A stretch of 64,000 bases of DNA from a virus: the IMG/VR virus record IMGVR_UViG_3300027798_000016, positions 1-64,000 of that record. One strand, 5' to 3'. Under the pieces are notes generated by a model that did not search any database, had not been told where the DNA came from, and saw only the letters and a program-made list of their open reading frames with translations. This document shows, piece by piece, positions 18,980 to 41,346 of the stretch (the stretch's first letter is position 1; every line of letters begins with the position of its first letter). The position numbers and the translations under genes are program-made.

Positions 18980-19574
18980 GATCTAAGTCGCAAAATATTT
19001 TAACATTGTTCTGCGAAAGCACTTCGCAAAAACCCATATCTTCACCGTGCCAAGTTGAACTGGGTGCATGCCATTTAAGTGGGAAGTGTGGGCTTGGAAT
19101 TTCATTGACGATACTGGCCTTGATTAATACACAGCCCATTCCTGTGTATTTTATTTCAGTGAGTCCGTGTCCGCTGACATCCACTGGTTCCACTGGATCA
19201 ATGTTGTAAAAAGCAGTGGTATGAAATGGTTCTACTCTCTTGGAGTATGTTGCACAAACAACATTTTTATTGTGTTCAAGTAATCTGACAATGACATCTT
19301 CTGGAAATGTCATGTCGCTGTCAAACCACATGATGTGATCTGCCTGATGTGTGTTTATAGCACTATCTAACAATACTTGTCGTTGATTGCTCAATACTGT
19401 ACCTGCATCCATTTCTAATACCACTGGTATACCTTGCTTTTCAGTGAATCGTATTGCGTTGGTCAGGCAAAACGCACTCAATGAATGCATCATTCCGTTT
19501 GTTGGAATGCAGATTACAACCTGCTCACTCAAAGCAGGTTGTTTATCAAAGATAGTTTTTCCGGACTTTAACAA
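18930..19574 (-). CDS. Glycosyltransferase (GT-A fold, family 2-like)
   Basis: VVICIPT...HIMWFDSDMTFP (DxD), GMGCVLI, GEDMGFC, IGHLG. Confidence 0.8.
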   Translation of the reverse strand: MLKSGKTIFDKQPALSEQVVICIPTNGMMHSLSAFCLTNAIRFTEKQGIPVVLEMDAGTVLSNQRQVLLDSAINTHQADHIMWFDSDMTFPEDVIVRLLEHNKNVVCATYSKRVEPFHTTAFYNIDPVEPVDVSGHGLTEIKYTGMGCVLIKASIVNEIPSPHFPLKWHAPSSTWHGEDMGFCEVLSQNNVKIFCDLDLSREIGHLGTQEFRVN

Positions 19575-39856: not shown

Positions 39857-40077
39857 TGTTAGGAACCAACGGAGCAAAGATTAGACGCTTCGTTGAAGGT
39901 ATCGAATCTGATGCAAGAGCCCTGATCAAGGAAGTTACTACTTTGAGTGTTTGGGCAACCATAGACCCAGAAACCATTTGGAATATGACTCATTTAGAAA
40001 GAGTTGTGCTATCCGAAGCAGTAAAAGAAAGAACAGAAGCAATGTATGGCAAAAAAGGATTTGCTCGCTCAAGGTGA
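39856..40077 (+). CDS. Baseplate hub assembly catalyst (gp51-like)
   Basis: Short ORF coupled to gp26 (TGATG); IWNMTHLER motif. Confidence 0.55.
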   Translation: MLGTNGAKIRRFVEGIESDARALIKEVTTLSVWATIDPETIWNMTHLERVVLSEAVKERTEAMYGKKGFARSR

Positions 40078-40089
40078 TTCATTTATCAT

Positions 40090-40620
40090 CTTAGTAGAGC
40101 GATTCTATCGCTCTTGAATTTCGCATTGCTTCGCAATCGCTCATTCAGTTTTTATTGTTTAAGGTTTTAACGGTAAAGTATTGTAATGCAAGTGATGAAA
40201 CATTTTGATTACTTGACACTGATGATTCAGTCACACTTAGCCCTGTTAAGGACTAAGAGAAAACTTGACACCGAAGTCCAAGCCACATCCAACTAAAGAA
40301 ACTTGTTAAAGTAAGGGCGGTCACGCTGTACCCTTTTACACTCATCTTATATGACGCTACCGTATTGACCTAGTTGAAATCGTCGATACAGCATGTAGGT
40401 TGTAATAGTTCACCAGAGCCTACTCATTTTAGCTTTCGTATACTAATCCCAGTTCTTTTCAAGCAATTGAACTTCGTCCTGTGAAGGATAGTGGGCGTTA
40501 GTCTCTGCTACTGCACAGAATTTCCTTCCCCAGCGCAACCCTAGTGCCTGGTTTTATGGGTGTCTAAATATATCGGCGACACTGGCCTATCAGTAGTGAT
40601 CTTGTCGTTGTGAGTTTGCT
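40090..40620 (-). ncRNA. Putative large structured non-coding RNA (family not identified)
   Basis: No ORF of 60 aa or more in the track. At least 8 hand-found stems, several needing G-U pairs available only on the minus strand; cUUCGg loop; candidate pseudoknot. Boundaries approximate. Confidence 0.6.
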
Positions 40621-40721
40621 AATTGAATTTGCGAAATCGCTGTGAGTGTCTACATTGCGTAGTAAATTAGCCAGGATGAGTTATTGTACACTTTAATTAT
40701 CAAATGAGCCAGGTGAGTTAT
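40605..40721. repeat. Short imperfect direct repeats
   Basis: aaattagccaggatgagttat (40664-40684) / aaatgagccaggtgagttat (40702-40721); tcgttgtgagt (40605) / tcgctgtgagt (40637). Confidence 0.7.
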
Positions 40722-40729
40722 AGCCGTTA

Positions 40730-41158
40730 TTACAGCTTGTTTATTATGTGTGAGCCATGTACACGAACACTAATTTGTCCATTGTAATAATCTGTCGATT
40801 CCAATACTTTTCTATCAAATTGTTCTTTGGCCTCTATGTAAGAGCATACAGCCTTTGAATTACAGTAATGTAGAATCTCTCTAATAAAGTTATCTCTACC
40901 AAGAGATTCTACATCTTTGTTCAACTGATCGTTGCTACCGTAGTATTCTTTCCAGTCTGAGTCAATCTTAGAACGAATACGCTTTTTCTTCTTGACTCCA
41001 TTTTTCTGTTTGACCACTTTATAGGTAGTCTTGGAAAACTTTGCTAACTTTTTGCCAACATACATCCGCTGGTCAGTTTTATTTGTTATAAGATAAACAA
41101 AACCAACGCATTCTTCGGGAAGTACATCTACCACAGTACCTTGATACAGCCAAGTCAT
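40730..41158 (-). CDS. Compact GIY-YIG family nuclease
   Basis: GFVYLITN....RMYVGKK (GIY-YIG variant), WKEYYGS, FIREIL, conserved E and YYN; Lys-rich insert. Confidence 0.8.
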   Translation of the reverse strand: MTWLYQGTVVDVLPEECVGFVYLITNKTDQRMYVGKKLAKFSKTTYKVVKQKNGVKKKKRIRSKIDSDWKEYYGSNDQLNKDVESLGRDNFIREILHYCNSKAVCSYIEAKEQFDRKVLESTDYYNGQISVRVHGSHIINKL

Positions 41159-41346
41159 TACTTGGGAGTTGACAGGGCTTCTTTCTCGGCTGTAATCTCT
41201 TTACGGCGTTCTTTGATTGCTTTGCTCATTTCTTGTAATGCTTTGCGAGCACGAGCGGCCGCGGCTTTGACACCTTTTGCAGTGAACTTTTCGTTTTCGC
41301 TTTTGTAGTTCTCAAACTGCTCTAACAATGTTTCGTGATTTGACAT
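41158..41346 (-). CDS. Small basic histone H1-like (Hc1-type) protein
   Basis: EKF..KGVKAAAARARKALQEMSKAIKERRKEI pattern; coupled to the GIY-YIG gene by TAATG. Confidence 0.7.
   Translation of the reverse strand: MSNHETLLEQFENYKSENEKFTAKGVKAAAARARKALQEMSKAIKERRKEITAEKEALSTPK

What the first reader, a model, noticed from the sequence alone, without database searches (positions are those of the whole stretch)
40090..40620. Candidate undescribed ~500-nt highly structured RNA in the only long intergenic gap
Seen: 40078-40729 is the only ORF-free stretch over about 130 nt in an otherwise packed window. Read on the minus strand (the direction of the upstream gp55-gp47-gp46-GIY-YIG operon), it gives these nested stems, in + coordinates. 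(1) GUGUC/GACAC (40560-40582). (2) A three-way junction closed by ACUAA..CCCA/UGGG.UUAGU (40442-40502), holding hairpins UCCU-UCAC-AGGA and AGUUC/GAACU. (3) GUAGG/CCUAC (40395-40423). (4) A 12-position stem with two G-U pairs (40358-40369 with 40382-40393); its loop UUCAACUA (40371-40378) can form 8 bp with downstream UAGUUGGA (40288-40295), i.e. a pseudoknot. (5) GUAA..GGG/CCCUUAC (40311-40339). (6) A cUUCGg-capped hairpin (40264-40282). (7) The 9-bp CUUAGUCCU-UAAC-AGGGCUAAG (40236-40257). The G-U pairs become A-C mismatches on the + strand. Known: phages carry large ornate RNAs (GOLLD, ROOL) and group I introns. Inference: this is a functional large RNA; I cannot match it to a named family.
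Basis: partly seen in the sequence, partly recalled or inferred. Interest (0 to 1): 0.85.

Follow-up and report, generated by a model that had tools for sequence, protein, structure and literature searches.

The report
Full-length Polynucleobacter-1 phage RNA
The gene-free gap behind a small nuclease gene of this uncultured freshwater T4-like phage encodes a real, heavily knotted non-coding RNA of about 500 bases. Only its first third is catalogued, as an orphan RNA motif, and its job is still unknown.

Summary
The feature is a minus-strand RNA. Its core is 40206-40600 (395 nt), followed by a variable linker and two conserved 3' hairpins that end near 40096.

- **Known part.** 40442-40587 is a full-length match to Rfam RF01718, Polynucleobacter-1 (90.8 bits, cut-off 37). 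So part of it does match a named family.
- **Uncatalogued part.** The Rfam model lacks one strand of each of two pseudoknots. It also lacks the whole 3' domain, which is the part shared by all relatives.
- **Support for the fold.** On 43 distinct relatives, a 106-pair model with four pseudoknots is 87.9% paired, against 33-43% when the partners are slid. Across three classes with different 5' domains, the 3' domain holds at 87.8%.
- **Against.** Folding energy is no better than shuffled sequence.
- **Context.** In 83 of 83 phage loci with enough upstream sequence, a small nuclease gene lies directly upstream. The RNA also occurs in a few small-genome Burkholderiales, next to DUF6641 genes.
- **Function.** Unknown. 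I read it as a stand-alone, trans-acting RNA.
- **Unexplained.** Two 8-nt boxes are always identical to each other within a genome but differ between lineages.

This scan has already reported the same RNA on other genomes.

The parts
40206..40600 (-). Conserved core of the RNA: 5' domain plus 3' domain, 395 nt
   Evidence: 44 unique class-1 relatives are 391-404 nt over the same bounds. A model of 106 pairs is 87.9% paired.
40442..40587 (-). Part matched by Rfam RF01718 (Polynucleobacter-1), model positions 1-141 of 141
   Evidence: 90.8 bits, cut-off 37, E 4.4e-18
40591..40596 (-). CUACUG, 5' strand of pseudoknot PK-A. It lies upstream of the start of the Rfam model.
   Evidence: It pairs with CAGUAG at 40508-40513 in the loop of the UCUG/CAGA hairpin. 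100% paired; one pair varies as UA 36, CG 4, UG 2, GC 1.
40504..40519 (-). Hairpin P3 (UCUG/CAGA), whose loop carries the 3' strand of PK-A
   Evidence: 100% paired; UA 22 / CG 21 at one pair
40560..40582 (-).
   Evidence: 100% paired; 4 of 5 pairs change on both sides
40442..40502 (-). Three-way junction: closing helix ACUAA..CCC/GGG.UUAGU with hairpins UCCU/AGGA and AGUUC/GAACU
   Evidence: Junction helix 88.7% paired, 5 of 8 pairs change on both sides. UCCU/AGGA hairpin 95.9% and AGUUC/GAACU hairpin 100% paired.
40432..40464 (-). Pseudoknot PK-D: GCUU (40461-40464, in the AGUUC hairpin loop) with AAGC (40432-40435, just 3' of the Rfam model)
   Evidence: 90.7% paired; 3 of 4 pairs change on both sides
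40395..40423 (-). Hairpin P5 (GUAGG/CCUAC), the first helix of the shared 3' domain
   Evidence: 100% paired in A1 and in A2; 4 of 5 pairs change on both sides over 62 sequences
40358..40393 (-). Long hairpin P6, whose loop carries the 5' strand of PK-B
   Evidence: All 12 pairs change on both sides. 70-75% paired on MAFFT alignments.
40288..40378 (-). Pseudoknot PK-B: UUCAACUA (40371-40378) with UAGUUGGA (40288-40295)
   Evidence: 89.3% paired; 7 of 8 pairs change on both sides; at least 13 complementary versions
40314..40355 (-). Hairpin P7 (AGGGU/GCCCU, 40314-40334) holding the near-invariant GGUACAGCGUNACCGCC. Pseudoknot PK-C: GUCAU (40351-40355) with GUGAC (40320-40324) in the P7 loop.
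   Evidence: P7 100% paired. PK-C 97-100% paired, with UA 42 / CG 20 at one pair.
40301..40312 (-). Hairpin P8 (ACUU/AAGU)
   Evidence: 94.4% paired; 3 of 4 pairs change on both sides
40264..40282 (-). UUCG-capped hairpin, specific to this subtype. Its 3' strand is twin box 1, GUGUCAAG (40264-40271).
   Evidence: Only 57.5% paired across the alignment.
40236..40257 (-). Hairpin P10 (CUUAGUCCU/AGGGCUAAG)
   Evidence: 88-92% paired; 3 pairs change on both sides
40212..40219 (-). Twin box 2, GUGUCAAG, identical to box 1
   Evidence: These are the only two copies in the 64 kb. The boxes stay identical to each other while differing between lineages.
40148..40205 (-). A/U-rich linker, variable in sequence and length
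   Evidence: Not conserved in alignments
40096..40147 (-). Conserved 3' tail. A hairpin with a GAG/AA internal loop (40115-40147; outer stem UGAAU/AUUCA) is followed by an 8-bp terminal hairpin (40096-40114).
   Evidence: The block is conserved in phage relatives. The outer stem differs but stays complementary in bacterial and class-2 copies (read by eye). In one bacterial copy the terminal hairpin is followed by UUAUUAU.
40730..41158 (-). Gene directly upstream: 142-aa SegE-like GIY-YIG nuclease. This is context, not shown to be a partner.
   Evidence: Pfam PF19835, E 1.7e-31. 78 of 83 phage loci have it and 5 of 83 have a PD-(D/E)XK nuclease instead.

Best explanation
It is a gene for a large non-coding RNA of about 500 nt, the full-length form of the RNA whose first 141 nt Rfam lists as Polynucleobacter-1.

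**Shown**
- The minus strand folds into two domains.
  - The 5' domain runs from about 40600 to 40432. It is the Rfam motif plus an upstream CUACUG that closes a pseudoknot.
  - The 3' domain runs from about 40430 to 40206. It is not in Rfam and is the part shared by all relatives.
- Four pseudoknots tie the two domains together.
- Two conserved hairpins end the unit near 40096.

**Inferred**
- It is made either as the tail of the gp55-gp47-gp46-nuclease transcript or from a promoter that I could not place.
- It ends at the terminal hairpins.
- It works in trans as a folded particle, that is, a protein-binding scaffold or a catalytic RNA. It is not a leader that controls a neighbouring gene.
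- The two identical 8-nt boxes are read by base pairing. They could be read in turn by one partner strand, which would make a toggle, or by a partner not yet found.

What the RNA does in infection is not known.
For: **Identity**
- Full-length RF01718 match, 90.8 bits against a cut-off of 37.

**Structure**
- 106-pair model on 43 distinct sequences: 87.9% paired against 33-43% when slid. 54 pairs change on both sides against 13-27 when slid. 0 of 500 shuffles reach the score.
- 3' domain on 62 distinct sequences of three classes: 87.8% paired against 33-50% when slid.
- Table of PK-B versions.

**Strand**
- 281 G-U cells against 110 A-C cells.

**A unit of its own**
- The RNA keeps its length (391-404 nt) and its 3' hairpins in three settings:
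  - class-1 phages, where a convergent gene follows, so no gene lies downstream on its strand;
  - class-2 and class-3 phages, where an unrelated ORF of 147-162 aa follows;
  - bacteria, where the downstream genes differ in each of 3 loci.
- One bacterial copy ends in a hairpin plus UUAUUAU.
- In a cultured relative, Synechococcus phage SynMITS9220M01, the homologous GIY-YIG gene lies just upstream of a tRNA cluster, with one small ORF between them. That is a place where stable RNA genes are kept.

**RNA libraries**
- Contigs from four metatranscriptome runs were laid. Those of X17 (40321-40728) and X18 (40044-40511) cover the RNA.
Against: - Folding energy is no better than shuffles (z = -0.32 and -0.14). 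Nested-only folding cannot score the four pseudoknots.
- No start, end or strand of a transcript is shown. The runs are contigs only, and DNA carry-over cannot be excluded.
- No promoter or terminator was called in the gap, apart from one weak promoter-like site inside the RNA.
- In the window the terminal hairpin is not followed by a U run on the minus strand.
- A nuclease gene lies directly upstream in 83 of 83 phage loci. This fits a cis or partner role as well as it fits mere synteny.
- Two helices of my model are weak. The box-1 hairpin is 57.5% paired, and the box-2 hairpin is 79.5% paired with no change on both sides.
- No trans target, protein partner or activity is known.
Confidence: 0.55

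Rival explanations
1. It is a cis-acting 3' element of the upstream nuclease message. The folded RNA would stabilise, limit or time expression of the homing-type nuclease, or would bind and restrain the nuclease protein in the manner of an RNA antitoxin.
For: - A small nuclease gene lies directly upstream on the same strand in 83 of 83 phage loci with enough flank: 78 GIY-YIG and 5 PD-(D/E)XK.
- No promoter was found between the gene and the RNA.
Against: - Bacterial copies have no nuclease upstream. A DUF6641 gene lies there on the opposite strand.
- The same GIY-YIG family occurs in 420 cultured phage records. The gap and a class-2 RNA gave no blastn match in that collection, and none of three homologue loci that I read has room for a large RNA directly behind the gene.
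- Two unrelated nuclease folds at one position is what swapping of homing endonucleases beside a conserved target looks like (my inference from T4 seg and mob genes).
Confidence: 0.17
2. It is a 5' leader or riboswitch that controls a downstream gene. This is the cis-regulatory reading that the 2010 table gives for the 141-nt motif.
For: - Weinberg et al. 2010, Table 1, marks the motif as probably cis-regulatory, with 'switch ?' (passage seen).
- Class-2 and class-3 phages and the bacteria do have a gene downstream on the same strand.
- Many invariant unpaired bases would suit a ligand pocket.
Against: - In the window, and in every class-1 locus whose flanks I read, a convergent gene follows. 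Nothing is there to regulate.
- The downstream genes in 3 bacterial loci are unrelated to each other: no Pfam family, YbjN, no Pfam family.
- Conserved hairpins, one with a U-rich tail, end the unit before those genes.
Confidence: 0.07
3. It is a DNA-level element. It could be a replication origin, a recombination hot spot or the homing target of the neighbouring nuclease, with the apparent structure being that of single-stranded DNA or of no consequence.
For: - It lies at the convergence of two transcription units, beside recombination genes (gp46, gp47).
- A conserved RNA gene is a likely homing target.
Against: - Four pseudoknots and twelve hairpins with changes on both sides, and a 2.6-to-1 excess of G-U over A-C, point to selection on one strand as RNA.
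- A strand-specific covariance model matches it.
- Being a homing target would add to, not replace, its being an RNA gene.
Confidence: 0.04

Closest known systems
Polynucleobacter-1 RNA motif (Rfam RF01718; Weinberg et al. 2010, Genome Biol 11:R31, PMC2864571)
   Same: - 40442-40587 matches all 141 model positions at 90.8 bits.
- The same hairpins and three-way junction are present.
- The habitat and taxa agree. The paper's table lists Burkholderiales and fresh water/estuary. I found it in small-genome Burkholderiales and in freshwater runs.
   Different: - The catalogued motif is about a quarter to a third of the RNA.
- It leaves out the CUACUG strand of PK-A, the AAGC strand of PK-D, the whole 3' domain of about 230 nt with PK-B and PK-C, the twin boxes and the 3' hairpins.
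- The 3' domain also occurs with two other 5' domains that match no Rfam family.
- The table's cis-regulatory label does not fit the class-1 phage loci.
- I could not see the paper's supplements, which may show more.
GOLLD and ROOL large ornate RNAs of phages and prophages
   Same: - They are several hundred nucleotides long with many pseudoknots.
- They are carried by phages, often near tRNA genes.
- They have no known function.
- These features are recalled. For the cryo-EM preprint 10.1101/2024.12.08.627333 I saw only the listing and the start of the abstract.
   Different: - No Rfam hit to either family at E up to 10.
- Sequence and helices are unrelated.
- The hosts differ: here T4-like aquatic phages and Polynucleobacter-like bacteria.
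- Multimer formation was not tested here.
tmRNA, including the two-piece tmRNA of related aquatic T4-like phages (Melnitz; PMC9004378)
   Same: - The size is similar, and E. coli tmRNA has four pseudoknots (recalled).
- tmRNA is carried by T4-like phages of streamlined aquatic bacteria (passages read).
   Different: - ARAGORN finds none in the window, and Rfam gives no tmRNA-family hit.
- I saw no T-arm and no alanine-type tag frame.
- All 4 bacterial genomes that carry this RNA have a standard tmRNA elsewhere.
Free-standing homing endonuclease beside stable RNA genes (T4 segB in the tRNA cluster)
   Same: - A small GIY-YIG or PD-(D/E)XK nuclease gene lies directly upstream of a conserved RNA gene.
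- A homologous GIY-YIG gene lies just upstream of a tRNA cluster in SynMITS9220M01.
- The T4 segB case is recalled, not checked.
   Different: - Here the RNA is one large knotted RNA, not tRNAs.
- Homing was not tested.
- The nuclease is fixed in nearly all relatives rather than sporadic.

Membership tests
Rfam RF01718 Polynucleobacter-1 | Covariance-model score at or above the curated gathering score, over the full model | tested here: met
   90.8 bits against 37, model positions 1-141 of 141, minus strand
Rfam RF01718 Polynucleobacter-1 | The model's helices are kept with compensatory changes in relatives | tested here: met
   P1, P3 and the AGUUC hairpin are 100% paired with 2-4 pairs changing on both sides. 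The junction helix is 88.7% paired. P2 is 79% paired.
Rfam RF01718 Polynucleobacter-1 | Location in a 5' UTR (probable cis-regulator, as listed in Table 1 of the 2010 paper) | tested here: not met
   A convergent gene follows in the window and in every class-1 locus whose flanks I read. This is an annotation of the family, not part of the model.
tmRNA (one-piece or permuted) | tRNA-like domain and tag reading frame detectable by ARAGORN or by the Rfam tmRNA models | tested here: not met
   ARAGORN finds 0 genes in the window. No tmRNA-family hit at E up to 10. The host genomes have their own tmRNA.
Bacterial RNase P RNA | Match to the RNase P covariance models | tested here: not met
   No hit at E up to 10. 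The GGAAAUUC segment pairs locally (P3), not long-range. All 4 host genomes have RNase P RNA elsewhere.
Group I or group II intron with a homing endonuclease ORF | Intron covariance model, and flanking exons of one interrupted gene | tested here: not met
   No Rfam intron hit. The nuclease ORF abuts the Hc1-like gene upstream and the RNA is followed by a convergent gene.
GOLLD / ROOL / HEARO / OLE / raiA large RNAs | Match to the family covariance model | tested here: not met
   RF01718 is the only hit in the window at gathering scores. Nothing else appears at E up to 10 apart from two chance-level eukaryotic models.
RNA-guided or RNA-partnered nuclease system | Obligate co-occurrence of RNA and nuclease, and a guide segment matching a target | tested here: inconclusive
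   The nuclease is upstream in 83 of 83 phage loci but absent from 3 bacterial loci. The nuclease family is common in phages without this RNA. No complement of the boxes occurs elsewhere in the 64 kb. Binding was not testable.

The most novel reading that the evidence does not exclude
The RNA is a new class of large functional RNA particle shared by T4-like phages and mobile islands of their hosts. It could be a ribozyme. It could instead be a self-assembling RNA in which the two identical boxes let one strand pair either within the molecule or with a second copy, as in the strand-swapped multimers seen for ROOL and GOLLD. In either case it would act in the conflict between phage and host defence. 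One bacterial copy sits beside a Zorya I system and a small recombinase.
Probability: 0.06. Interest if true: 0.85.

Novelty: new variant of a known kind. Interest (0 to 1): 0.55.

Why it matters
- An orphan motif catalogued in 2010 as a 141-nt probable cis-regulator turns out to be the variable front end of a much larger RNA. That RNA has four pseudoknots and a conserved, uncatalogued core.
- It is common in uncultured T4-like phages of lakes and seas. I verified 92 IMG/VR loci from three pattern scans.
- It joins the short list of large, intricately folded bacterial and phage RNAs with no known function. Such RNAs have repeatedly turned out to be ribozymes, guides or unusual assemblies.
- The twin boxes give a concrete handle for experiments.
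- A full-length model would let databases annotate what is now an empty gap in these phage genomes.
- In print I found only the 2010 paper (search; related searches found nothing on it).
- This scan has met the same RNA repeatedly on other genomes, so the window adds a further member, not a first sighting.

Tried and rejected
**Identities rejected**
- tmRNA, RNase P, group I/II introns and GOLLD/ROOL/HEARO: rejected by Rfam at E up to 10 and by ARAGORN. The four bacterial carriers have their own tmRNA and RNase P RNA.
- The resemblance of GGAAAUUC and ACAG..ACCGCC to RNase P conserved regions was recalled. I dropped it because the first segment pairs locally.
- Hammerhead-like and box C/D-like words (CUGAUAG, CUGAAUGAG): considered by eye and dropped, because they are not conserved.
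- A tag-like small ORF (GCU AAA AUG ... UGA): dropped, because the frame is not kept in one relative (L073) and the peptide is not tag-like.
- A sigma-70 -35 box on the plus strand at the twin boxes (TTGACA): dropped, because there is no -10 and the boxes vary.

**Partner of the twin boxes, not found**
- No constant complementary column in the alignment. The best bins are the local 5' strands, in 17-18 of 44 sequences.
- The P1 3' strand fits in some lineages only.
- The linker 'anti-box' fits in one lineage (L008 type) only.
- No complementary 8-mer elsewhere in the window.

**Searches that gave little**
- Mutual information with APC and my own helix finder were noisy. I used them only as leads.
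- blastn of the gap and of a class-2 RNA against cultured phages: no match.
- Genome-contig scan with the 3' core pattern: 37 loci, none matched the profile, all taken as chance hits in GC-rich genomes. The bacterial copies carry a variant core that this exact pattern misses.
- Metatranscriptome contigs cover the region, but they cannot show transcription, strand or ends. The parts without cover in X19 and X20 mean nothing.

**DUF6641**
- No PDB relative, no PADLOC hit, no paper, and only its own family in the ESM Atlas.
- It is multi-copy: 16 copies in 8 of 151 genomes. The nhmmer profiles found the RNA beside 2 of those copies. A third copy, in G092, lies beside the weak RF01718 match (25.8 bits, below the cut-off), which I also read by eye.
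- I therefore do not claim that it is the RNA's partner.

**Not used**
- The metagenome-contig scan, complex prediction and build_rna_model.
Full report
**What is in the window**

The stretch 40078-40729 lies between two converging genes. One is a 74-aa ORF that follows a T4 gp26-like baseplate gene on the plus strand. The other is a 142-aa SegE-like GIY-YIG nuclease gene on the minus strand. Upstream of the nuclease gene on the same strand lie an Hc1-like gene and the gp46- and gp47-like genes. With a greedy set of ORFs of at least 50 aa, this is the only long gap in the 64 kb; the other gap of 130 nt or more is 177 nt. The window is part of a 125-kb IMG/VR virus record that CheckV rates 38% complete. 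Freshwater and lake-water runs hold the stretch.

**Known part**

A scan of the whole window against Rfam gives one match. 40442-40587 on the minus strand matches RF01718, Polynucleobacter-1, over the full model at 90.8 bits against a cut-off of 37. A permissive scan of the gap (E up to 10) adds only two chance-level eukaryotic models. ARAGORN finds no tRNA or tmRNA. The only paper in the library that names the motif is Weinberg et al. 2010. Its Table 1 lists it as a probable RNA, probably cis-regulatory, 'switch ?', from Burkholderiales and fresh water/estuary (passages only, supplements closed).

**Relatives**

Three exact-pattern scans of IMG/VR were made, one with the core of the motif and two with a conserved word about 183 nt downstream. 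They returned 29, 76 and 119 or more loci. I removed chance hits by eye and with nhmmer:
- 10 of the 29 loci;
- 1 of the 76 loci;
- 39 of the 52 loci that were new in the last scan.

This left 92 loci that hold the RNA. Three classes appear.
- **Class 1** (52 loci from the first scans plus 12 new ones) has the Polynucleobacter-1 5' domain.
- **Class 2** (26 loci) has a different 5' domain.
- **Class 3** (L135) has a third kind of 5' domain.

Classes 2 and 3 match no Rfam family (10 class-2 loci at gathering scores; L033, L075 and L135 at E up to 1). All classes share the 3' part. Cultured phages gave no blastn match.

**Structure**

44 unique full-length class-1 RNAs are 391-404 nt long. RNAalifold predicts 55 pairs, 26 of them with compensatory changes. 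It also shows that the invariant CUACUG just upstream of the Rfam model pairs with CAGUAG in a hairpin loop of the motif.

I wrote a model of 106 pairs in 18 helices, four of them pseudoknots. On 43 distinct rows it gives:
- 87.9% of cells paired, against 33-43% when the partners are slid;
- 54 pairs with changes on both sides, against 13-27 when slid;
- 0 of 500 shuffles reaching the covariation score.

The 3' domain alone, on 62 distinct sequences of all three classes, is 87.8% paired against 33-50% when slid.

Weak points of the model are the box-1 hairpin (57.5% paired), the box-2 hairpin (no change on both sides) and the long stem on a sequence-only alignment (70-75%). Minimum free energy is not better than that of shuffles on either strand. 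G-U cells outnumber A-C cells 281 to 110, which fits the minus strand.

**Ends**

Conservation stops near 40206. A variable A/U-rich linker follows. Then comes a conserved block with a hairpin that holds a GAG/AA internal loop (40115-40147) and a terminal hairpin (40096-40114). The same two-hairpin tail, with different but complementary outer stems, follows the RNA in class 2 and in bacteria. In one bacterial copy it is followed by UUAUUAU (read by eye, not counted). No promoter or terminator was called in the gap, apart from one weak promoter-like site inside the RNA.

**Twin boxes**

GUGUCAAG occurs twice, at 40264-40271 and 40212-40219, and nowhere else in the window. In every relative the two boxes match each other, while the word differs between lineages, classes and bacteria. 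I found no constant partner. This remains unexplained.

**Context**

Of the 83 phage loci with at least 700 nt of upstream sequence, 78 have the GIY-YIG gene and 5 have a PD-(D/E)XK nuclease gene directly upstream. Two truncated loci were set aside from that count.

The GIY-YIG family occurs in 420 cultured phage records. Three of those loci were read:
- in Melnitz it follows nrdB, with no large gap behind it;
- in S-SRM01 a convergent gene follows closely;
- in SynMITS9220M01 it lies just upstream of a tRNA cluster, with one small ORF between.

The RNA also occurs in bacteria. 4 of 151 sampled genomes of one Burkholderiales-order sample match, 3 of them above the cut-off, and all four genomes are 1.7-1.9 Mb. 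Within their genera it is patchy: 1 of 4 and 2 of 7 genomes. These copies carry both domains, the pseudoknots and the twin boxes.
- In 3 of 3 loci with flanks, a DUF6641 gene lies divergently upstream.
- One locus sits between a Zorya I system and a 212-aa tyrosine recombinase.
- DUF6641 is multi-copy, and most copies lack the RNA.
- All four genomes have their own tmRNA and RNase P RNA.

**Expression**

Six metatranscriptome runs hold the stretch. Contigs of X17 and X18 cover the RNA. Contigs cannot show transcription, strand or ends.

**Reading**

The RNA behaves as a unit of its own in three unrelated gene contexts, has its own end hairpins, and has no downstream gene in class-1 phages. I therefore favour a stand-alone, trans-acting folded RNA (0.55). 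The alternatives are a 3' element of the nuclease message (0.17), a leader or riboswitch (0.07) and a DNA-level element (0.04). The remaining odds go to readings that I have not thought of. What the RNA does is not known.

**Earlier notes of this scan**

Earlier notes, which I read only after my own analysis, report the same full-length RNA, the twin boxes and the DUF6641/recombinase islands on other genomes. They agree with my reading and did not change it.

Noticed in passing
window 19210-19386: The only other gap of 130 nt or more (177 nt) without an ORF of at least 50 aa in the window.
   Followed up: no
window 40605-40729: ACTCA-containing repeats between the nuclease stop codon and the RNA. 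Two longer copies read AACTCA.CCTGGCT.ATTT. A similar GGCTAAT word precedes class-2 RNAs. They could be promoter or binding sites.
   Followed up: partly
window 41158-41346: A 62-aa Hc1-like (histone H1-like) basic protein gene lies between gp46 and the nuclease gene. It is present in the class-1 loci but not in the class-2 loci that I read.
   Followed up: partly
L217 10262-17947 (bacterial genome G050): A complete Zorya type I defence system (ZorA, ZorB, ZorC, ZorD with an SNF2-Mrr fusion) lies next to the bacterial copy of the RNA. A 212-aa tyrosine recombinase lies two genes downstream of the RNA.
   Followed up: partly
L222-L237 (bacterial genomes G003, G024, G037, G050, G081, G092, G102, G103): DUF6641 is a multi-copy family, with up to 4 copies in small Polynucleobacter-like genomes. 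What lies upstream of the copies without the RNA was not examined.
   Followed up: no
L042, L051, L079, L032, L087, L064, L135 (about 450-930 nt downstream of the class-2 and class-3 RNA anchor): Class-2 and class-3 phages carry an extra ORF of 147-162 aa with a conserved Cys-Pro-(F/Y)-Ala-(R/K) motif between the RNA and the baseplate genes. There is a weak DUF6217 hit (E 2e-4, below the cut-off).
   Followed up: partly
I did not examine it.
   Followed up: no
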